In this document: positions 24,426 through 37,000 of the stretch, piece after piece | How the letters are laid out: the number at the start of each line of letters is the position of its first letter | Position numbering within the stretch: the stretch's first letter is position 1 | Source: Neodothiora populina | Lineage: Eukaryota | Assembly (NCBI RefSeq): GCF_041146345.1 | Contig: NW_027191406.1 | Span: 1,364,001 to 1,428,000 of the forward strand | Direction: 5' to 3' | Length of the DNA stretch: 64,000 nucleotides | Notes under the pieces: generated by a model | The model's database searches: none | The model's input: the letters and a program-made list of their open reading frames with translations, nothing else | What the model was told of the DNA's origin: nothing | Position numbers and translations under genes: made by a program

Positions 24426-27037
24426 CTTGAGTAGTGAGTTTGAGGTGAATTGAGCAGCTTAGCTCTTACGAAAAGCGGTCTTCACGAGGCTTTTTAAGCT
24501 TACTCAGAGCAATATTCATCGATACACACCGATTGCCTCATGAGGAATGTGAGACCTCAGCTCGATCCCAGTACGCCTTGCCGTATGCATAGTAGAGAGT
24601 CGCATTGCGCCTCCGCCTTATTATTGGTAGAGTAACAAGAGACCAGTTTACAGAAGGATTGTACGGTTTCCCGTTTTCCCAGTGATTCCGAGACAGAGAT
24701 ATGAACGAGATTTTGATGATGGCGCATGCAAAAGCCACTGAGGAGGGGCCCGCTTACGTGAGAGGAAGATGATACGAAAGGCTGAAGGTCCAGCGCTCAG
24801 GCGGTGATCGGTTTTATTGACTTTCAGATTCGTGAAGTTGACGAGTATGAATTGTCTCAACCCAGATTGTTGAGATTGCTTGTTAAAGGCAGTAATCATC
24901 AGCCGCAGGCTCTCGACACTGTGAGACTTGGGGACTTGTCTTCGCGTGCCATGTGCTCGAGGTGGGACAGGCCGCGTGGTTGACTGCTTTAATGTAGGAC
25001 CATGAGAGACTTGCATTCATCGGTATCCCCGCCTTGGCTGACCACGATACCTCGAGCTGAAGGCCACCATAAGTTGGTGGCCTTACATCCACTACCGAGT
25101 ATGTGCAAAGCAGAAGCGAGCTGAGTGAGCGTATCTCATCCGCACGTTGGATCACATAATGAAACACGACCAATCAGCAGCTTACAATTCCCTATAGCAA
25201 CACACGGGACTTGCCAACTCGAAAGCTGATGCCAAGGCCTCAGTTCCAAGCACTGCGTCCAAGTAGTTTCTAGTGACACACTGCAATCCCTCGAGCATGC
25301 ACCCCTTTGAAGACCATTCTTTGGGGTTTGATGTCCAAAGGTGATTATAGAAAGTCCAGCATTTCAGTTTGTTACACGACTGCAAGTTGATTCTCGGCAG
25401 CCGTCTACTCACCATCACCACTAGACCGCTCATGTCACAAGATGGCGGCTTATGGCTGACCTGAACGGCAGAAAAGATATGCTTGCGCGTTCTGACGCAG
25501 CCTCATGGACCGCCTCATTCATATCGAGATGGAGGACCACTTTCTTCCGACGTCATGTCAACCAGCCATACGAGTCCGATCACGACTCTATCCACTTGCA
25601 GCACCTGGCTACCTGCATCGGTGGGTTCGTGTAGAGAGGATCTGGTCTCTCCCCCAGTCCACAGCATTACTATAGCTTGGATGACAATTGAGCCTCATCC
25701 TGCTGTCACAGGGACCGATGGCAGCAAGGATCCAGACTCAAGGTAGGTGACATGAGCCTTGACAGTGACAAAGACTATGTGTCTTGTTAGTAGTGAGGTT
25801 GCACGGTGCAGTGTGTGCGCCTTTCCATGCCACCGTCAAGAGGTGTGATGTGCTGATATCCTCTATTGCCACCGCGGCTGGTCTACTCTACTAAGAGTCA
25901 CGTGGTAGAATATGGCATAGCTTTGAAATCTTGCTGTACATCATCGTGAACCACATCAATTCAAGCTCGAGACCGGATATAGGATCGTGGTGTCGCAAAG
26001 TCCTATACACAAAGGTCCATGCTGGAGAGCTTTTCTGTTCAGTCGACAATGCACACCTTCGGAGTTCGGAGCTGCTCCGTCAGTTCGCCATGTAATAACT
26101 GTCATCTTGTTCTGTCAGTCGACCGCCAAGGTCTCTTCATTTGACGGATGATATGCTTTTAGTGTTCTCGTCGCGTACAAAAAACTACTGCATTTCACAG
26201 ACTCAATATAACGCGTTCAAGTCAGCAACTTCTGCATTTGTGAAAGGCAGTGGTCGACAAGGCTAACAATACTCCCCGAGATCTCGTCTGTTGATAGATT
26301 TGCGGATCCAACTAATGCATCGAGAGCAAGGCCGCGCAGAGCAGAGGAAAAGTAGTGTCAGTGCAGTGCCATAGCAAATACTCTTGCTCTGAATCTAACA
26401 TGCTTGATCTGTTGTTGTGGTTGTTGCTCCATGCGGTGAGGTGCGTGGAAGCAAGGTGACATTCTTCATGGCGTGTCATTCACCTTCAATAAGTGTCCCA
26501 CCCTGAAAACTTATTCAGGGTTACTGGCCATGGCAGGGCGGCGGAAGAAGCTTCCGATCGATGAACGACCAAGATCTGATTCGGAAAGGTAAGGGCTTGA
26601 TGATAGCTCTGTTCCTATTGGCTGCAAAGGATGCCAGGGTAAAGCCATTTACACCGCCAGATAGACGTCCTCCTTTCGCCTGCATCTCCACAGACACGAT
26701 TTCCAGCGGGATAGAAGTCTGCTCCAGGGTGTGTCTCATATATATCGAAACATCACCTGGGTCTTGCGAAAACAAGACCGTTTGCTGCGTCTCGTGGTCG
26801 ACTTGTAGGTGTACATGATTACCTACCGTACTCCAAAGACCCATAGAGATCGTCATCATCACGTTCATCAAGCCAAGCCCTAAAAGTACCGGTACAGAGC
26901 ACGGAGAACTTCACGACCGTCGCGTTTCTGGGGTCAATTGTTATATCATTTCGAGAACACCCGCTCCATCATATACCACGACATGTCCCCGAGTATAGAA
27001 GACGTCTCAGTCTAGGATTCTGGAAGGCCGGAAGAAC

Positions 27038-28810
27038 ATGGCCCTGTCGAACATATCAGTGCCGGAAATCCAGTCGCAAATAGCCCCTCGGCAACTCCAC
27101 ATCCTCTTCTCTTCGAGTGGGTGTACAGATGCAGCCATCGTGAGAAACCTCCTGCCATCCCTGGTCAGCATACCAGATTGCTCAGTCAAGGCGATACTGG
27201 ATATCGGCTACGGAAATGCAGACCTTATCTCCGCTTCTTCTGAATGTCTCACCATTCCCAACATCATTCGGGCGCAGACCAAGTCTGTACAGGACACTGA
27301 GAAATTAGAAGAGGAGGCGGCAGATCTGTGCCAATGGGCTGACATACTCGTGCTGGCACCTATTGATGCCAACAATCTCGCCAAGATGCTACACGGCGGA
27401 ACAGACAATCTGCTGCTAGAAATACTCAGGAGTTGGAATGTGTCGAAAAAGGTGCTTATGGTGCCAGGCATGTCGTGTCTCATGTGGGAGAACCCCATGA
27501 CGAAGAAGCAACTCACCAAGATCAGGCGGAAATGGAATTGGGTACAAGTTCTACCGCCAATTCTCTGGACCTTCGAAGATGGCAAGAAGCGCATCAAGTC
27601 TCGCGAGGTTTTCTTCGAGCTTACCGAAACTGTGCGAAACCAGGTCGACCTTATGAACATCGGTCACGGCGTGCAAGTTTCCCCTACGCAGAAAGGCGTC
27701 CGGTATCAGAAGAGCTCTAGCACTCGTCGTTCGACCAACTTTCTGCCGCCGGAGTTATGGACTATGATCCTCGATGCTTCCGGAGATTGGGAGTTGGCGA
27801 AAACCTTACACATATATACTAATCTTCCACCCCCACCGGAGTGGCAACAACATGCCAGTCCCAAGGGTCCTCAGAACTACATGGAGCAGCTTGAGTATAC
27901 TCTGCTCACTGGTCAACTCTCCGACATTAAAGCATTCATAGCTGCCAACAGTGTTCCGCGCTGGATGAGTCGACTATGTATCAAGCTCATCATGCGCTTC
28001 GCCATGACGTCTCTCCTCTCATATCTCGAGTCCGAACATAAACATCTCTTCCTCAGTATCTTCGGCTCTACCTTCCTGCCTGATAAAGCATCCTCGGTAT
28101 TCGGTAGAACAGAGATACTCGATTTCTGGAACACGAGCCCGAGCTTCCTGACGAAAAACTATACGGCTGAAGCTGTCGATGGGGCAAGCAGACAGGGCTT
28201 TGTTCATGTGCTAGAATGGTGGCAGAAAAGCGGTCTCAAGCTGCTATATACAGAAGCTGCTTTGGAGCAAGCGAGCTCACAAGGCCATATGGATGTTCTA
28301 GAATGGTGGCATAATCTGATAAGCCATCAACCCATGGAGCATGACACCACTGGATCTGACTCGATGACGACTGCATCCGAAAACCATCGTCGACCACTCA
28401 AATCAAAGCCAGGAAAAAGTATTTGCTACGCGACGCAGGCTGGAAATGCAGATGTGGTGCGATGGTGGGTTGAGTCGGGTATTGCTTTCGCGCATGAGGA
28501 CACAGTTGCAAAATTGGCCAGCACGCACGGCCACGTCAATGTTCTCGAGACGTGGCACGAGCTCAAGGGCTCGAAGATGATCTACGATAACCAAGTCCTG
28601 GTCGGCGCAACGAAGATGGGACACGTAGACGTTCTGGAATGGTGGAAACAGAGTGGACTACGAGTCGAGTACAAGACTTGCGATGTCGAGGAGGCCCTCG
28701 AAGACGGTATAGAGGGAAGGAAAGGTGACGAGGTACGCAGGTGGTGGGCCAGGAATGGTCTCAATCTTGGCGTTGGCACATCTGAATGGATGAAACCGAA
28801 AGTGCTCTGA
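27038..28810 (+). CDS. HFCD (PPC decarboxylase/Hal3-like) flavoprotein domain fused to ankyrin-like repeats
   Basis: WADILVLAPIDANNLAKM..G..DNLL..ILRSW....VPGM..MWENP matches the HFCD core; six or seven C-terminal repeats of type A...GH.DVLEWW. Confidence 0.85.
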   Translation: MALSNISVPEIQSQIAPRQLHILFSSSGCTDAAIVRNLLPSLVSIPDCSVKAILDIGYGNADLISASSECLTIPNIIRAQTKSVQDTEKLEEEAADLCQWADILVLAPIDANNLAKMLHGGTDNLLLEILRSWNVSKKVLMVPGMSCLMWENPMTKKQLTKIRRKWNWVQVLPPILWTFEDGKKRIKSREVFFELTETVRNQVDLMNIGHGVQVSPTQKGVRYQKSSSTRRSTNFLPPELWTMILDASGDWELAKTLHIYTNLPPPPEWQQHASPKGPQNYMEQLEYTLLTGQLSDIKAFIAANSVPRWMSRLCIKLIMRFAMTSLLSYLESEHKHLFLSIFGSTFLPDKASSVFGRTEILDFWNTSPSFLTKNYTAEAVDGASRQGFVHVLEWWQKSGLKLLYTEAALEQASSQGHMDVLEWWHNLISHQPMEHDTTGSDSMTTASENHRRPLKSKPGKSICYATQAGNADVVRWWVESGIAFAHEDTVAKLASTHGHVNVLETWHELKGSKMIYDNQVLVGATKMGHVDVLEWWKQSGLRVEYKTCDVEEALEDGIEGRKGDEVRRWWARNGLNLGVGTSEWMKPKVL

Positions 28811-29716
28811 AGTCGAAATCTGAATCAGCACACGTCCCCAATTTGACGATTCGTTCTTCTCTGGCACTATGCAGTGCAGAGCCGAGTGTTTTTTGTATCG
28901 TTCGTCAAAGTCGACTTTCATGTATATAACTTAGATTACTATCATTATTTGCATGGCGCTGGTGGTGTTACCCAGGTATTTCTATCTTTAGCATCACGAC
29001 TTACTCTGGTTATAGATAATCATGTACCTCGGACATACCTCGATGGACAAATGTACTTCTTGATACCTACCTTAGGTACCTAGCTTTAGCTCAACCACGC
29101 TTTATCTGCATCACAGCCCCGGCTTGCTGCCTATGCGACCTATATCTGCTTATGATCCGAAAATATCGCACACATGCTATACCTTTAAGCCCAATACAAA
29201 TGTACTACAGTGAACAGGTAAAAACATCGAACAGTAAGGCAACAAGTTAGTTCCTCGGAGGCTAAACTCGCTTCATAAACCTCCTTGCAGATCCTCAAGC
29301 CAAGCAGATTTGACGGCTGTCAATCCCCCACGTGCGCCACGTTGGTGCTTATAGCCTAGCCGTGATCTGCGGGAACGCCGCGGGGGACCACTGAACTTGG
29401 CAGACGCGATCTAGTTCTGCTGTACTACACACGAAATTCTCACAACATTGGGGACCATTTGTTTGCTTATACCCGATACAAAGTGTCGCAGCTGTTATCC
29501 CTGTGACTTCTGAATACCATCTATGCTTGGCAAGGATCGCGAATCTTTCTGATCCCAAATACTGTCTCTCATTCTCGGCGACTTATAGTGTAGCGCCATC
29601 TGTGTTTTGGTCGTTGAAATAGTGACGAGTCTCTTCTCGTCTCCTTATCTTCTGCATATAGAGCATGCTTGGGTGAATTATTGCCTGCTTCAACGAAGAA
29701 GCCGCCAAACGAAACC

Positions 29717-32700
29717 ATGCCGACCAATATGAATGTCGAGGACATGACTCCTACGCAGCGTGCTCGCTACGAGAGCAAGCGGGAACACGAGTTCTACAGG
29801 TTAGATGCACTTACCACAACTGTAATCTCATCGCATTTGGCTGACCTATTTCGCAGCTACTACGAACCCATTCGTGCGCTGAATGCATCCGAGCTGGCTT
29901 GGACTGATCTCAATTCTCCCGAGGCAGTGTCTGCACATCGCCCCTCATCTTCGCCGGACAAGGCATTGACAGCGTTCTGCCAGCTCGCGGCTATTCGTCT
30001 TGGCATGAGGCGAGCGATGGTGTTTTTCTTTGACATTGACTCTGCCTATATTCTTGCTGAGGCGACTCGGACTTTGTCCCTGCAAGATGACGACCTTTAC
30101 GAGGCGAAGGACGAGTTGTGGCTGGGCGCCACCAAGATTCCTCGTGGTTTCTCTGTATGCGAACACACCGTCAATCTACCAGCTAATGGAGGCAGTAATT
30201 CTAGAGACGACAATTCAGATGTCATCCATATCATCAATAACCTCAGCGAGGACACGCGTTTTTGCAACAGACCTTATGTTACTGGTGGGCCCAAAGCTCG
30301 ATTCTATGCTGGTGTACCAATAACCACTTCCAAGGGATTAAATATTGGTGCTTTTGTATGTATTGGATACTCATGTACTAAGGAAATCATCGCTAACAAC
30401 AGATAGTGGTGAGATGTATGGGGCTGTCATGGTTTGGATATGTTTCAGCTAACATAGTGTGATTCACAGCGTGCTAGATGATAATGTTCGCGAAGGTCTG
30501 GATGCGAAGAGTACTGGATTCCTTCAGGAGATGGGCAGTGCTGTTATGAGCCATCTGGAGATGGTTCGCGCCATGGCCGAGCAGCGTAGGGGAGCTCGAA
30601 TGGTGTCTGCCCTCAGCGCCTTCATGGAAGGCTCCTCCGACGCATGGCAACAATCCAACCAAGCGTCTGGCAGCACTATGACTGATATAAATTCTGCCAG
30701 ACGTCCGTCACTCGACAAGTTCGGGAGGATGCAACCAGGCGACAAAGTGGTGAGGCCGGATCAAACTGCGAGCCTGGCAGGTGACGCTCTGCCGAAAGCG
30801 CTAGAAACCCCAAAATCGCTGCCAAATACTACTAGAGCTTCAGATATGAAGCCGAACATAGCCGAGGATGTGGACTGCACGGGCTCGTCAGACGATCTTG
30901 CTAGCATATCAGTATCCAGTGCCTCTACAACGGAAGAAGACCCCGAGCTGAAATCCCATGGTCGCACTGTACGGGGAACCCTGCAAACAGCCGCAGATCT
31001 CATCCGCACAGCGGTAGATGCGGATGGTGTACTTTTCCTGGATGCGACCATATCTGGCTTTGGGGAATTGATTAATAGTTCGATGATCAATAGCACTCCA
31101 GATGACGACATTGATACCACGACCAGTGGCGCGGAAGGAACTGAAGGAACAGGCAGCGAGGCCGACTCCATTAGTGTTTCGCCTAGTCAGAGGGAGGCTG
31201 CTCTCGAGACATCATGTGCGTTGCTCGGAGCTTCTTATGCATCAAGAAATGATCCAGAAGTCTCACACAGTCTGCCCGCACGAAAGTTGTTACACTCATT
31301 GCTGAGATATCATAAGCGCGGAAAGATTTGGAACTTCAGTATTGCCGGTGGAGAATCTGTAGACATTATGACATCAGAAAGCTACAGTGCTTCTGACACT
31401 GGATCTGCAGTACTTCCACAAGACGCGAATGCAGGCAGCGAGACATCCAAAAAAAGGCGTAAAAGACTCACAAAAGCGGCATGGGGCAAGGACCTAGGAC
31501 AGTTGTTCCCTGGTGTACGAAGCCTCATGCTTCTCGGCCTATGGGATCCTAGCCGAGACAGGTGGTACGCTGGTTGTATCATCTGGACATACTCGCCTAT
31601 ACGCGTCTTTTCTCAAGAGGGTGAGATGCATTATCTTACAGCTTTCTGCGATGTCATCATGGCAAAACTCGGCCGCTTGGACGTGGAGCTTGCAAACAAG
31701 GCCAAGTCAGACTTCATATCTTCGATAAGCCACGAGCTCCGGTCTCCCCTTCACGGCATTCTTGGTACGGTTGAGATCATGCAAGATCAGGTGAGGGACC
31801 CTGCGACTAGTGGTATGATCACCCAGATCGAGGCCTGCGGCCGTACCCTGTTGGATATCGTGGACCACCTACTAGACTTCTCCAAGATCAACTTTTTCGC
31901 AAAGCGAACCCTTGTGGCAGCTGACCCAGCTCAGAAGGGGCGCAGGAGCCTGAGCGCCAGGGTGAATAAGAGACGAAGTCTTGGTGGTATGATCTCCGTA
32001 GATGCCGATGTGGCTCTTGATCAGATCACGGAAGAAGTCATAGAAACTGCGGTATACTCGTACTGCTGCTCGAAAGACCAAAGGGTCCTGTCTGCGCGGA
32101 ATCTCACCGTAATCGTGGACATCGACAGATCTCTTGGAGTGTCTTGGAGATGTCGCGTTGCCGTTGGTGCCTGGAAACGCATATGCGTCAATCTTGTCAA
32201 CAATGCGTTGAAGTATACAGCAGAGGGCTACATTGCTGTTTCACTCAAGATGCTGCCTCACACTACCAAGGAGAAGCGGCCATGTGCGCAATTCACGGTG
32301 ACAGATAGTGGCCGAGGGATGTCGAAGGAATTCTTGGAGAATCAACTTTTCCACGCTTTCACACAAGAAGACGACTTAGCAGAAGGTACAGGACTAGGTA
32401 TGAGTATGGTCGCTAAGATTGTGAAAGGTATCAAGGGTAAAGTGGATGTTCAAAGCGGAAAAGGCATCGGAACCATTGTTACTGTCACTGTGCCATTGGA
32501 ATTGAGCCGTCCCTCTCGTCAGAAAGAGCCCGCGGAGAAAAAACAAAAAGAAGCGCAGCGCGACCTGACTGCTCTCGCGATGGACGTGCTTGGCCCACCG
32601 ACGCCGGAAGGTCAGAGTCCTACCGAGGTGGGTATAAGACTGTTGCTCAAAACATTACGCAAGACGTGTGACGAGCTTGGGATTGCTTTGTCCGGACCCA

Positions 32701-34005
32701 GCTGGACAGTGTCGGACGCGAGCGTGCTGTCTATGATCACAGAGGCAGACATACCTCAATTACTACATCTCTTACAGTCGGCACCTCACGACATCAGCCA
32801 GGAGGAACTTGCCCTTGTCTCACAGCTACGGTACAAGCCTCTGGTGATTTTGTGTAATGACTACATGTCTGCACGTCGGCTGAAGAAGTCTGACCTCAGT
32901 CAACTTGTGGAAGGTCATATCGAGTATATCTCTCAACCCTGCGGTCCACAACGGCTTGCTATCGCTTTGCAGACGTGTCTCTCTGGCTCTATAAGTCCGC
33001 CATTTTCTCCTATCGGGATTGATAATGTCCCAACACCTCGAGCGCGTCCGAACCGCTTGTCCATGACGATGCCAGACTTTGACGGTTCGATGGCTTATCA
33101 TAGTGATAGTCAAGGATCACGCACGGCTACCCCATTGACAGCCATTGCGATTCCAAACCGACCGGATGGACACATCGGTGTCAGTCCAGGCACGTCAATA
33201 CTCCGCTGGAACGACACAATGACTGATGACGCTTCTGATACCCGTGAAGGCTCAATCAGTGAATACCCATTTCCTCAAGTTCCAGTCATGACTGAGTTGG
33301 CCGAGAAGCTTGCAGATACAGCTATCTCACTAAGAAAAGATTCGCAAGCTACAGGGCAGGGCAAGCGGAAGCCAGGATCCAGCATCGACCCTTCGAAGTC
33401 TTGTCTCCTTCTGGTAGATGATAATGTACGTATAAACCCGGACACGTAACGTCCTTCGCTGACAATACTTCCAGGCTATCAATCTCCAGCTCCTTGTAGC
33501 CTATGCCAAGAAGCATGGCCATCTGGCGCTCACGGCACGAGATGGATCTGAAGCAGTTGAAACATACAAGACGGCTGCTATTGCTGCAAGAAAATCTGTC
33601 TCTGCCGAACACAAGAATAGCAATAAAAGCGGAAACAGCAACCAGACATCTCCGCAGTTGAATACTGACGCACAGGGCTCACCCAACGCTGCTCGAAGTG
33701 TCAAGCCAACGGTCATCCTGTTGGACATATCCATGCCCGTAATGAACGGCTTCGAAGCCACTCGACACATCCGAGCATTCGAGCATCGTCACAAAATTGA
33801 GCCTGCCACCATTGTGGCTCTGACGGGACTGGGGTCCGCTGACGCTCAACGCGAGGCGTATATCAGCGGTGTAGATCTGTTCCTGACGAAGCCTGTCAGA
33901 CTCAAGGAGCTTACGAATCTGCTGAAGGACATCGAAGAGGGCAATCACAACAACGAAGGTGGCAAGCACAGCGTTAGTCCACGAAGCGGCGATGATTCTG
34001 GATGA
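29717..34005 (+). CDS. Hybrid sensor histidine kinase (GAF-HisKA-HATPase-REC); exons 29717-29799, 29857-30355, 30407-30408, 30470-33425, 33475-34005
   Basis: GAF (DTRF..RPYV..GP.ARFYAGVPI...G.NIGAFCVLD), H-box ISHELRSPLHG, N-box NLVNNALKYT, G1 DSGRG, G2 GTGLG, receiver LLVDDN/LLDISMPVMNG/TKP; start codon uncertain. Confidence 0.9.
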
Positions 34006-37000
34006 TGGTCTATTCATCAATGCAGACGCCTCGAACTCAGAAGTGATACAGTTGACACACTAAAAGCGAACATCCTAAATGCTTGATAGTCAACAGACGC
34101 TTCTGACTCGGCAAACGTCGACCCACGAGAGCAATGACCTATCGGAAAGCACTCGAAGGGTACTGGTGACTAGTTGATAATACACTAACCAACCTTCGCA
34201 AAAGAGGCATCGTAAGCCTAAGCGACAAAAGAAACCGTTGCAAACGCTCTAGTCTCAAAAGAGCCGGTACTCAGGGTTTTTCACATCAACGTTGGGAGAC
34301 AGTTAATGGGGCTCTCGTTGCGCCACAGCGCTATAATCCTTTTTAGCACAACGGGAGTATACTTTGCGGTGCTCGTGCTCGTATACGGGAAGGGTTTAAT
34401 GCCGGAGTTGGTTGGGCTATGATAATAGCACTCTTGCAGTATAGCATTGACACACGTTGATCGACTCGATTCGAGAAGTCATCAACAGTATCACCTTACA
34501 GAGACCAGATGCCAGAGAAACAAGCGTTCTAGTATATGTGGAAATGTAGCTACGGAAATGGACAATGTGTGGAAAGGATAAGGGTGCACAGGACAGGAAA
34601 CAGGACGGAGTCTCGAGGAAACTAATGACAATACAACGGTTGCTATTTGAACAACAACGCATTATTAGACGAGAATACCACTGTAGTGTGGTACAAGTAT
34701 GGATACTATCTTACTTTGTACAACATTTCAGTTTATGTGCAAGCAAATGTTGCTGATAATAAGGGCAACGCTGTATGGAGTAGAGTTTGATAAGATACAT
34801 TAGAGACTACAATGGAAAGTAGAAATCGCAACATGCCAAGCGACCCTGGTCCTCCTCTCTTCCTACACCATTAAGCCCTGTATACACACAATATATCAAA
34901 CGATTGGCACATACAACGCTGGAAATGACTTCAAAACTGTGTGACGAGAATAGGTGAAAGACTGGCTAGACTGACGCTGTGGTTATGCTATAGCACATCC
35001 TCCTCGTAAGGGAAATGTAGAGCATCAAAACTCATGGTCAGGGAACGCAGACACACATGCATACAGTCTTCACGGCGCTACGATCGTGGCTTAGATATCT
35101 GCCTTCTTCCGCTCGGATATAGACGAAAGGGTGCAGTAAGGCAGGCATATTGCCATCTATTCATCTGCATCGATAAGGCTGCAACGATATTTACAAAAGA
35201 CAAAAGAAGAAAGACGATCGAAGTCGAGTCAAGACAGTATGATACATCAGAGGCGAAAATGGATAGTCCTTAGTAGTAAGGAGATATTTCTAAATCAATC
35301 GCGATCATAATCACGAAAACAGGATGTTCAAATGATAGTAGGTTTTCCTTGCTATTCGACAACGTACAGTACAAGGATTATCGGGTATAAAAGTACTACG
35401 CCAAGCCCACGTGCTGCACAATATGCTTCACCCATAGAAGAAAAGTCTGCTGTAAAGCCAGAAAATGAGCCCGCGGGGGGAATGATCGGGTTCTAGCAGG
35501 TTGAAACAAGGTAGACTTTTCATATTATACAAGTATCTACGTGTATGTGTGTGCTCCGTATGAGTGAGTGAGGGAGTGCGTGTGTCAGGTATTATGAGCT
35601 TTTCCTGGATTCAAGCTTTGGGCTCCTGTTGCGTCTTGCGCGTCACGCTCGTTTGGTGGTAGTAGTAGTGGTGGTCGTTGTTTCAGCATTCCATAGGGCA
35701 TCGTGTCGAGGAGTGAGACATTGACGACCGAATAAGAAACTTCATATTACATTGACCAAGGAGATAGAAGGACTGAGAAGAAGCCGCGGACGACGGTAAT
35801 GGAAGATGAGATGACTGGACCAGAAGAGGATCTGCATACAGCACTGTACTATAGAACATTCGAATTTCTGTTCTCAAGGTTTTGTTTGTTTATTCAAAAC
35901 ATCACGTTAAGCCTTATAAGGCAGGATGAACAGAAACCCCCATCACCTTCGTATGCACGAGTGACAATGTACTGTTTATCGTACCTGTACCTATACAAGT
36001 ACATGCACTGCATCTGCTGGGCGCAGAAGCCCAGTGACCTACAGTAGCATCGACAAGGGTGGAAAAGGGCGCGTGTGTGTGGTTAGGCTCAACCGAGGTC
36101 TTCTCTTGCAGGAGACAACGACGAGATCGTCGTACCTGAATCACTTGTCATAATTGTTCAATCGCCAGAAACGCAAATTTGTTTGCGAAAAGAAGGTAAG
36201 GTACGCACACTGCAGCTTGTACCCGTGGCACCGCGACAACATCAAGCACACACAGAGTCAGTCTTACCACGCATGCACAATTTCCGCTCGACGTAAGGTG
36301 ACATGTGCATATAAATGGCCAGACATGCATGACTTGGAATTTATGCATGGACGCCCGTGCTGTTAGAGTAAGAGGCGTCTCCTAGCGGAATGTCACCAGG
36401 AACCCATCGTCGCTCTGGTTGACTTGCCAAATGGTTCTCCTTCGGTCACGCCCCGGACTTCCCAAAGTTGTCGCCTGTGCATAGTGGATAAGAAGGGAAC
36501 AGACTCCAGGTCGTCGGATTTCTCGCACAGTGGTCGAATCCTGTACGGACCGGCGGGCGGGGCGCCATTTCCCCAAACCTTAATTCGCCGAGATTGAGAT
36601 AAGATGAAGGCAGGACTCTAAGAAGGGGTATCCCCAGCAAGAGCCAGCCTATCAGTGATATACCTTGATACATAAAAAAGCATGACCGGCCTCTCGCGTA
36701 TATACCGAGTCTTTAGTAGTGAGTGGCGCATATAGGATTGCTGGAGCCATAGTAACGAACATAAGTCCGTAGTGCATGCTGGCTTCTACCTAAGGAAAAT
36801 GGTGCGGGTCGGACCCAAGTGTTCGGGTCTCGTGCGGGTGCAGACGACCCAAAGCTGAAGACAGTGAACGATGATACAATATGTATACGTTAGAATGCAC
36901 ATTAGCTCAACATGTGACGGGTCACGATGGTCGCACATAGTTGGGGTGTTTGGAGGGCATCCGTCATCGTGGTTCAATCATGAGAAGGGCTTAATGCCAG

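What the first reader, a model, noticed from the sequence alone, without database searches (positions are those of the whole stretch)
30356..30470. 2-nucleotide micro-exon (TG) required to build the GAF domain of the histidine kinase
Seen: the upstream exon ends in phase 0 (GGT GCT TTT|gtatgt, 30356) while the downstream exon starts in phase 2 (cag|C GTG CTA GAT, 30470), so a single intron would frameshift. The gap contains two complete introns: 30356-30406 (GTATGT...GCTAAC...TAG) and 30409-30469 (GTGAGA...GCTAAC...CAG), separated only by TG at 30407-30408. Including TG gives TTT TG-C GTG CTA GAT GAT = GAFCVLDD, the usual GAF IGxxCVLD motif. Inference: gene predictors would split or truncate this gene, and skipping the micro-exon or using the CAG at 30402 would shift the frame and act as an off-switch for the kinase.
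Basis: partly seen in the sequence, partly recalled or inferred. Interest (0 to 1): 0.72.

Follow-up and report, generated by a model that had tools for sequence, protein, structure and literature searches.

The report
Two-base exon in fungal histidine kinase
A sensor kinase gene of this fungus most likely contains an exon only two bases long between two ordinary short introns, a rare but known kind of gene structure that has caused the public gene models to lose the protein's sensor domain.

Summary
The window matches Neodothiora populina at 100% identity (deposited protein). The gene is a GAF-HisKA-HATPase-receiver hybrid histidine kinase.

Between the Phe codon ending at 30355 and C at 30470 lie two complete short introns: 30356-30406 (51 nt) and 30409-30469 (61 nt). 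They are separated only by TG (30407-30408). Splicing both gives F-C-V-L-D-D. That is the contiguous sequence in 92 of 138 relatives that carry the motif.

The same AG|TG|GT layout occurs in three independent related metagenome sequences. Their intron interiors have diverged to near-random identity. One public model (Aureobasidium pullulans EXF-150) already reads the Cys from DNA that carries this layout. In total, 38 other Aureobasidium models (35 full-length in 11 wrong versions, plus 3 fragments) and both deposited N. populina models are wrong or truncated here.

All carriers fall in one well-supported clade. Contiguous forms are nested inside it, which implies at least two joint losses of both introns.

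No RNA data could be reached, so splicing is inferred, not shown. The proposed "off-switch" role is untested. One- to five-base exons are known elsewhere, and this scan noted a 2-nt exon in another fungus before.

The parts
29717..29799 (+). Exon 1, from the ATG start codon
   Evidence: ATG at 29717. The translation aligns with orthologue N-termini. It is part of the 1356-aa model.
29800..29856 (+). Intron A: 57 nt, GTTAGA...GCTGAC...CAG, phase 2. It is stop-free and a multiple of three, so ORF finders read through it.
   Evidence: Orthologues lack the 19 residues it would encode (alignment A1). Sequence, listed.
29857..30355 (+). Exon 2, encoding most of the GAF-like domain and ending ...GGT GCT TTT
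   Evidence: Pfam GAF matches profile positions 2-100 of 133, at 17.7 bits, which is below the 22.4 cut-off. 5 of 8 family members match GAF, best E 2.1e-7.
30356..30406 (+). Intron B: 51 nt, donor GTATGT, branch site GCTAAC (30392-30397), acceptor TAG 10 nt after the branch A. A competing CAG ends at 30402, only 6 nt after the branch A.
   Evidence: Donor, branch site and acceptor are conserved in L008, L032 and L048, while the interior is 4-11 of 30 identical.
30407..30408 (+). 2-nt exon TG: the first two bases of the Cys codon TG|C
   Evidence: Invariant AG-TG-GT block in 4 of 4 sequences. It is the only solution common to all four loci. Orthologues have a contiguous TGT or TGC codon.
30409..30469 (+). 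Intron C: 61 nt, donor GTGAGA, branch site GCTAAC (30448-30453), acceptor CAG 17 nt after the branch A. An AG ending at 30457 would give an in-frame +4 aa variant.
   Evidence: Homologous introns are present in L008, L032 and L048.
30470..33425 (+). Exon 4: the last base of the Cys codon, then VLDD..., HisKA, HATPase_c and the start of the receiver domain
   Evidence: 100% identical to deposited protein P0003.
33426..33474 (+). Intron D: 49 nt, GTACGT...GCTGAC...CAG, phase 0
   Evidence: Sequence. Removing it reproduces the deposited protein across ...VDDN|AINLQ....
33475..34005 (+). Exon 5: receiver domain and stop codon
   Evidence: ORF end at 34005. Response_reg hit on P0171, the deposited form of this region. 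Model.

Best explanation
The gene at 29717-34005 (+) is a five-exon hybrid histidine kinase of 1356 aa with GAF-like, HisKA, HATPase_c and receiver domains. Its third exon is only two nucleotides long, TG at 30407-30408.

Two ordinary short U2-type GT-AG introns flank it: B (51 nt) and C (61 nt). Each has its own donor, CTAAC branch site and YAG acceptor. Fungi recognise short introns as units (intron definition; established knowledge). So each intron is most likely removed in its own splicing reaction, and TG is left between TTT and C. This makes the Cys codon of the conserved ...IGAF-C-VLDD... strand.

The acceptor of B and the donor of C are 2 nt apart. The two reactions therefore probably run one after the other. 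This step and the order are inferred, following the argument made for the Arabidopsis 1-nt exon (PMC4674806, passages read).

Shown here: the signals, the frame logic, conservation of the layout, contiguous Cys codons in intron-less relatives, and the mis-annotation.

Inferred: that the RNA is actually spliced this way in N. populina, and that splicing is constitutive.
For: 1. Sequence and frame. A single intron gives a stop at 197 aa. The five-exon model is open for 1356 aa and collinear end to end with orthologues (P0139 1-1265, P0007 29-1335).

2. All four introns of the gene are 49-61 nt long. One 114-nt intron would be about twice the local size.

3. Among 138 relatives with the FYAG motif, 92 read a contiguous Cys form and 5 an Ala form by the script's patterns. 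Of the other 41, two are pattern misses (one Cys form, one Ala form), one is an Elasticomyces model with a deletion, and 38 are discordant models or fragments of one Aureobasidium paralogue clade.

4. The motif was located in 76 of 80 related metagenome loci. Of these, 41 have a contiguous Cys codon and 31 a contiguous Ala codon. Four are interrupted at exactly this point.

5. Those four (L007 and L008 are identical and count as one; L032; L048) all read F-codon|GTGAGT..CTAAY..YAG|TG|GTAAGC..CTRAT..TAG|C.

6. In alignment A2 the donors, branch site 1, AG-TG-GT and AG-C are invariant. Between the deep lineages (window, L008, L032) the intron interiors are only 4-11 of 30 and 12-13 of 34-41 identical.

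7. The branch-A to acceptor distance of intron B is 9-10 nt in all four, counted on the sequences.

8. Enumerating all GT/GC-AG solutions shows the TG exon is the only one shared by all four loci and the only one without an insertion.

9. The JGI model P0139 (A. pullulans EXF-150) reads GAF-C-ILDD. It is 792 of 792 identical to the downstream exon of L008, which carries the layout. That genome's annotation project had RNA-seq transcript assemblies (PMC4227064, passages).

10. L009 is genomic, because it keeps the upstream intron. It nevertheless has a contiguous TTC TGT GTC, as expected if both introns were lost together from a spliced copy.
Against: There is no RNA evidence. The one run found is probably DNA, holds 0.07 of the sampled words and does not cover the junction.

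The window has competing sites. A CAG ends at 30402 (use would shift the frame). An AG ends at 30457 (in-frame, +4 aa). A weak GTGGTG donor at 30406 would allow a single 64-nt intron with a 17-aa insert. A second window-only 2-nt solution exists (GAG|AT|GTATGG).

Each related locus also has one to three weak-donor single-intron solutions giving inserts of 6, 12 or 20 aa.

Whether the P0139 model itself rests on transcript evidence could not be checked.

The pattern count in the window is only modestly above chance.
Confidence: 0.85

Rival explanations
1. The TG exon is real, but its inclusion is regulated. Skipping it (donor of B joined to acceptor of C), or use of the CAG ending at 30402, gives a frameshifted message. 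This would act as an off-switch for the kinase.
For: Skipping ends the protein at 197 aa. The same skip runs into early stops in L008 and L032 when read by hand from the sequences. A competing CAG lies 4 nt upstream of the TAG acceptor. The layout has been kept in three deep lineages.
Against: There are no expression data of any kind. Two or more lineages lost both introns and kept the gene, so the layout is dispensable. The competing CAG is window-specific: it is absent in L008, L032 and L048.
Confidence: 0.1
2. In this species a single canonical intron 30406-30469 (donor GTGGTG) is used. The 51 nt of 'intron B' would then be coding, adding 17 residues inside the GAF-like domain.
For: It is the only single GT-AG solution that keeps both conserved flanks in frame without a stop. 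Intron B is a multiple of three.
Against: The donor GTGGTG is weak, while GTATGT and GTGAGA match the usual fungal GTRWGT (recalled consensus). The insert replaces the conserved Cys and has no counterpart in any of the 138 relatives. The equivalent route is closed in the other loci: L008 has an in-frame TGA, and L032 and L048 are out of frame with 50-nt introns.
Confidence: 0.04
3. The deposited models are right. The kinase starts downstream (residue 216 or 239 of the long model), and the upstream GAF-like ORF is a separate gene or a decaying remnant.
For: NCBI lists two isoforms of AAFC00_004357 that both start downstream of the junction.
Against: The upstream exons are intact. They are 78% identical to Aureobasidium uvarum over the aligned part and retain the start codon and splice signals. 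The GAF profile match is cut at position 100 of 133 by the junction. Orthologues are collinear across it. Truncation at the first ATG after a frame break is the expected artefact when a 2-nt exon is missed.
Confidence: 0.05
4. Assembly error: a 2-base indel in a single roughly 112-nt intron region mimics the frame problem.
For: None specific. Indel errors are a general risk of assemblies.
Against: The same AG|TG|GT layout with full signal sets is present in three other independent assemblies.
Confidence: 0.01

Closest known systems
One-nucleotide exon of CYP621A P450 genes in Fusarium (Nelson and Syed 2026, PMC12940212; abstract and passages read)
   Same: An ultra-short exon sits between two short canonical fungal introns, inside a conserved protein motif. 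It is needed for phase compatibility, missed by annotation pipelines, and supported by orthologue alignment and an intron-less homologue.
   Different: Here the exon is 2 nt, not 1, the gene is a histidine kinase, and the fungi are Dothideomycetes. The Fusarium case has SRA transcript support. This one has none.
One-nucleotide exons of plant APC11 and VPS55 (PMC4674806 and PMC8831610; passages read)
   Same: The micro-exon is flanked by two introns in most species, while some homologues are intron-less with the base(s) inside one exon. The authors read this as reverse-transcriptase-mediated loss. Reference annotations miss the exon and give N-terminally altered proteins. Stepwise removal of the two introns is proposed.
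   Different: Those are plants with longer introns, and the exons were validated by RT-PCR and reporter assays. Here the evidence is comparative only.
2-5 bp internal exons found computationally in Arabidopsis, Drosophila and human (Volfovsky et al. 2003, known here only as cited in PMC12940212)
   Same: Exon size class.
   Different: Other kingdoms. That paper was not read here.
Spliceosomal twin introns (stwintrons) of fungi (search listing and abstracts; passages of PMC7138796)
   Same: Two short U2 introns lie adjacent within one intervening region and are probably removed in consecutive reactions.
   Different: In a stwintron the internal intron interrupts a splice signal of the external one, and nothing between them stays in the mRNA. 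Here both introns are complete on their own and 2 nt stay in the mRNA.
GAF-only hybrid histidine kinases of filamentous fungi (groups I and VII in Table 1 of PMC13452588, passage read)
   Same: Domain content: an N-terminal GAF-like sensor, HisKA, HATPase_c and a receiver.
   Different: Group membership was not tested by phylogeny against reference members. The function of these groups is described there as little known.

Membership tests
Ultra-short internal micro-exon (1-3 nt) between two U2-type introns | Each flanking intron has its own canonical donor, branch site and acceptor | tested here: met
   Intron B is GTATGT/GCTAAC/TAG and intron C is GTGAGA/GCTAAC/CAG.
Ultra-short internal micro-exon (1-3 nt) between two U2-type introns | Inclusion restores the reading frame and a conserved residue; omission breaks the frame | tested here: met
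   The model is 1356 aa with TG and stops at 197 aa without it. Cys is contiguous in 92 of 138 relatives.
Ultra-short internal micro-exon (1-3 nt) between two U2-type introns | The exon and its four splice sites are conserved in orthologues while the intron interiors diverge | tested here: met
   Seen in 4 of 4 sequences representing 3 deep lineages.
Ultra-short internal micro-exon (1-3 nt) between two U2-type introns | Intron-less homologues carry the same bases inside one exon | tested here: met
   41 of 76 loci have a contiguous Cys codon. TGT or TGC was read in the 12 loci inspected, including genomic L009.
Ultra-short internal micro-exon (1-3 nt) between two U2-type introns | cDNA or RNA-seq reads show the doubly spliced junction | not testable with these tools
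   One probable DNA run was found, with no cover of the junction.
Stwintron (spliceosomal twin intron) | An internal intron interrupts the donor, branch site or acceptor of an external intron, which becomes functional only after the first excision | tested here: not met
   Both introns carry complete signals in the primary sequence, and 2 nt between them remain exonic.
Zero-nucleotide recursive splice site (ratchet point) | Acceptor and donor are directly juxtaposed (AG|GT) with no exonic base retained | tested here: not met
   TG lies between AG and GT and is needed for the frame.
GAF-domain hybrid histidine kinase | GAF domain in the N-terminal sensor region | tested here: inconclusive
   The window's exon 2 alone scores 17.7 bits, below the 22.4 cut-off. 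5 of 8 family segments match PF01590, best E 2.1e-7. Full-length P0139 and P0007 gave no GAF hit at E 0.01.
GAF-domain hybrid histidine kinase | HisKA, HATPase_c and C-terminal receiver domain | tested here: met
   HisKA E 3.3e-15 and HATPase_c E 5.6e-19. Response_reg on P0171, the deposited form of this gene.
Fungal HHK group I or VII | Clusters with reference members of the group in a kinase-core phylogeny | not tested
   Only the domain content was compared with Table 1 of PMC13452588.

The most novel reading that the evidence does not exclude
The AG|TG|GT arrangement is an old feature of this kinase lineage that is kept by selection. It predates the split of Neodothiora, the Aureobasidium paralogue and an unsequenced lineage (L032/L048). 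Because the acceptor of one intron overlaps the U1 site of the next, it would force an ordered, two-step (recursive-like) splicing path. The efficiency of that path would set how much full-length sensor kinase is made, with the skipped form (197 aa, premature stop) as a regulated unproductive product.
Probability: 0.1. Interest if true: 0.7.

Novelty: new member of a known kind. Interest (0 to 1): 0.5.

Why it matters
1. Annotation. Both deposited N. populina models lack the first 215 or 238 residues, which include the N-terminal part of the GAF-like sensor region encoded upstream of the junction. The same junction is modelled in at least 11 different wrong ways across Aureobasidium genomes. 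Comparative or functional work on this kinase family therefore starts from broken proteins.

2. Biology of splicing. Exons of 1-2 nt show that fungal intron definition needs essentially no exon. This locus offers a conserved natural case in culturable yeasts-like fungi (Aureobasidium) for testing the order of removal.

3. Evolution. Contiguous forms nested among carriers give a clean example of both introns disappearing together. That is the pattern expected from recombination with a spliced copy.

4. Method. An intron about twice the local size, combined with a phase mismatch, is a simple flag that annotation pipelines could use.

Tried and rejected
- RNA evidence. The look-up of sequencing runs listed no RNA holder, only one run with a 0.07 share. 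Laid on 29500-34200, it gave three short contigs (30019-30174, 33457-33638, 33822-34021) and none across the junction. This says nothing either way.
- Own genome. None is held for this window, so no genome-wide intron statistics or paralogue search was possible.
- Transcript-derived proteins of the Aureobasidium paralogue. The search with the L008 downstream exon and the cluster look-up gave no clearly transcript-derived contiguous form. They did give the JGI model P0139.
- Naming the organism of L032/L048.
- Single-intron and other two-intron solutions were enumerated. They were rejected as the main route because none is shared among loci and all add residues or delete conserved ones.
- Stwintron and zero-nt recursive site. 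Considered and rejected on definition (see membership test).
- Introner-like or duplicated origin of introns B and C. There are no other copies in the window beyond chance matches of 13 nt or less, and B and C are not alike. A 64-kb window is a weak test.
- Literature. The exact phrases for a 2-nt exon found no fungal paper (4 papers hold a term, 3 listed, none fungal). PMC5639578 has no micro-exon wording.
- Earlier notes near this place: none.

Full report
**What is in the sequence**

One search confirms every coordinate of the finding.
- The upstream exon ends ...GGT GCT TTT at 30355.
- GTATGT follows at 30356, GCTAAC at 30392-30397 and TAG at 30404-30406.
- Then come TG (30407-30408), GTGAGA at 30409, GCTAAC at 30448-30453 and CAG at 30467-30469.
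- C at 30470 is followed by GTG CTA GAT GAT.

Reading through from 30355 hits the TAG at 30404-30406 as an in-frame stop. Removing 30356-30469 as one intron shifts the frame and ends the protein at 197 aa.

**The gene**

The downstream ORF is 100% identical to a deposited protein of Neodothiora populina (P0003). That names the organism.
- Pfam finds HisKA and HATPase_c in the large exon.
- It finds a receiver domain at the C-terminus (on P0171).
- A GAF match in the upstream exon stops at profile position 100 of 133, right at the junction. It scores 17.7 bits, under the 22.4 cut-off.
- Five of eight family segments spanning the junction match GAF, best E 2.1e-7.

With two further introns the gene becomes a five-exon model of 1356 aa. 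These are intron A, 29800-29856 (57 nt), and intron D, 33426-33474 (49 nt). The model is collinear end to end with orthologues. All four introns are 49-61 nt long, so a single 114-nt intron would be about twice the local size.

**Protein-level expectation**

Among the 175 proteins gathered, 138 carry the FYAG motif upstream of the junction.
- 92 of these read a contiguous ...IG[A]x-C-xLDD form.
- 5 read an Ala form by the script's patterns.
- Of the other 41, two are pattern misses (P0016, a Cys form, and P0127, an Ala form) and one is an Elasticomyces model with a deletion.
- The remaining 38 all belong to one Aureobasidium paralogue clade and disagree with each other exactly here. By eye I count 11 different wrong full-length junctions, plus ORF fragments that run into intron B or start in intron C.

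**The same layout elsewhere**

A scan of metagenome contigs with an alignment of the N-terminal region returned 80 loci. My pattern located the junction in 76 of them.
- 41 have a contiguous Cys codon.
- 31 have a contiguous Ala codon; these are more distant paralogues.
- 4 are interrupted at exactly this point. The pattern did not place L028, L055, L059 and L061.

The four interrupted loci are L007 and L008, L032 and L048. L007 and L008 are identical sequences from two assemblies that also share another identical locus, so they count as one. All four read F-codon|GTGAGT...CTAAC or CTAAT...YAG|TG|GTAAGC...CTAAT or CTGAT...TAG|C, followed by [V/I]LDD.

In the four-way alignment the donors, the first branch site, the AG-TG-GT block and the AG-C are invariant. 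Between the three deep lineages (window, L008, L032) the intron interiors are near random, at 4-11 of 30 and 12-13 of 34-41 identical; L032 and L048 are close to each other. Intron B is 50-51 nt long in all four, and its branch-A to acceptor distance is 9-10 nt (counted).

**Rival splice routes**

I enumerated every GT/GC-AG single intron and every GT-AG pair of introns that keeps both conserved flanks in frame without a stop.
- The window has two single-intron routes. Both use the weak donor GTGGTG at 30406 and keep intron B as 17 extra residues.
- L008 has one route, with a GC donor.
- L032 has three and L048 has two, with weak GT or GC donors and inserts of 6, 12 or 20 aa.
- None of these is shared across loci, and the window's equivalent of the 6-aa route would need an AT donor.
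- The TG exon is the only solution present in all four, and the only one that reproduces the orthologue sequence with no insertion.

The window also has a few private alternatives:
- an AG ending at 30457 that would add four residues in frame;
- a CAG ending at 30402, only 6 nt from the branch A, that would break the frame;
- a GAG|AT|GTATGG pair without a branch site.

These could be minor products.

**A public model that already contains it**

The JGI model of A. pullulans EXF-150 (P0139) reads GAF-C-ILDD. Its residues 196-987 are 792 of 792 identical to the downstream exon of L008. With that DNA and canonical sites, a Cys at this place can only come from the 2-nt exon.

The genome paper reports stranded RNA-seq assemblies for that strain (PMC4227064, passages). 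I could not check whether this particular model rests on them.

By contrast, the two deposited N. populina models (P0171, 1141 aa, and P0003, 1118 aa) are exact suffixes of the 1356-aa model, starting at residues 216 and 239.

**Evolution**

In a FastTree of 111 rows, all five micro-exon rows fall in one clade of 28 rows with 100% local support.

In an IQ-TREE quick run of 30 rows (LG+C20 PMSF, SH-aLRT) they fall in a 20-row clade with 100% support. Rows were chosen by me, and loci under 200 residues had been dropped beforehand.

That clade also holds two groups without the introns:
- the main Aureobasidium orthologue, which has a contiguous TGC or TGT;
- a sub-group nested inside the Aureobasidium paralogue clade (L009, P0024, P0019, P0026) with a contiguous codon.

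L009 is genomic DNA, because it keeps the upstream intron. The fewest changes are three. The simplest reading is one origin and two joint losses of both introns, as argued for the plant 1-nt exons (PMC8831610). The trees are unrooted within the clade and its deepest forks are weak, so three gains cannot be formally excluded. No locus with only one of the two introns was seen.

**Mechanism**

Two independent intron-definition events leaving TG in the mRNA is the best-supported reading.

The acceptor of B and the donor of C are 2 nt apart, so simultaneous assembly of two spliceosomes is unlikely and stepwise removal is expected. This is inference, in line with the discussion of PMC4674806. The order is unknown.

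At least two lineages do without the introns.

**Known context**

- One-nucleotide exons are described in Arabidopsis APC11 and plant VPS55 (PMC4674806, PMC8831610).
- In 2026 one was described in Fusarium CYP621A and presented as the smallest fungal exon (PMC12940212).
- That paper cites 2-5 bp exons in plants, flies and humans.
- A phrase search for a 2-nt exon found no fungal paper.
I did not test that note.

This is therefore a new member of a known kind. It is real with high probability, of moderate interest, and of practical value for annotating this kinase family.

**Limits**

- No RNA data.
- No whole genome.
- The organism of L032 and L048 is unknown.
- GAF assignment is sub-threshold for the window's own piece.
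- Supplements of the cited papers were not opened.

Noticed in passing
window 29800-29856: Intron A is 57 nt, stop-free and a multiple of three. ORF finders therefore read it through as 19 extra residues that no orthologue has. Removing it gives ...EHEFY-S-YYEP..., as in Aureobasidium.
   Followed up: yes
protein P0123: A 754-aa protein labelled as a response regulator of a Cytophagaceae bacterium MAG begins MYQNS-ILDD.... That is the translated end of intron C of the Aureobasidium pullulans-type locus. It looks like a fungal contig binned into a bacterial genome.
   Followed up: partly
L007 vs L008, L042 vs L045: Loci from an ENA assembly and a JGI assembly are identical in pairs. They are probably one sample assembled twice and were counted once.
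   Followed up: partly
L010-L034: In most loci of this group (18 of 22; four run on for 51-80 codons) the ORF after VLDD ends after only 33-46 codons. This suggests another intron position that the window's gene lacks.
   Followed up: no
L032 and L048: The ORF upstream of the junction is only 20-25 codons long. These genes therefore have a further interruption just upstream that the window and L008 lack.
   Followed up: no
window 30400-30402 and 30456-30457: Extra AG dinucleotides lie between each branch site and its acceptor. CAG lies 6 nt after branch A of intron B, and its use would break the frame. AG lies 5 nt after branch A of intron C, and its use would add four residues in frame.
   Followed up: partly
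window 26999-28810 (+): A 603-aa open frame lies just upstream of the kinase gene, with repeated ...VLEWW... units that look like ankyrin-type repeats. It was not examined.
   Followed up: no
protein P0004: The closest non-self relative (50% identity, a Logan contig) is an ORF that starts exactly at the codon after the Cys (M/V-LDD...). This is as expected if its contig is also interrupted at this junction. The DNA could not be fetched.
   Followed up: no
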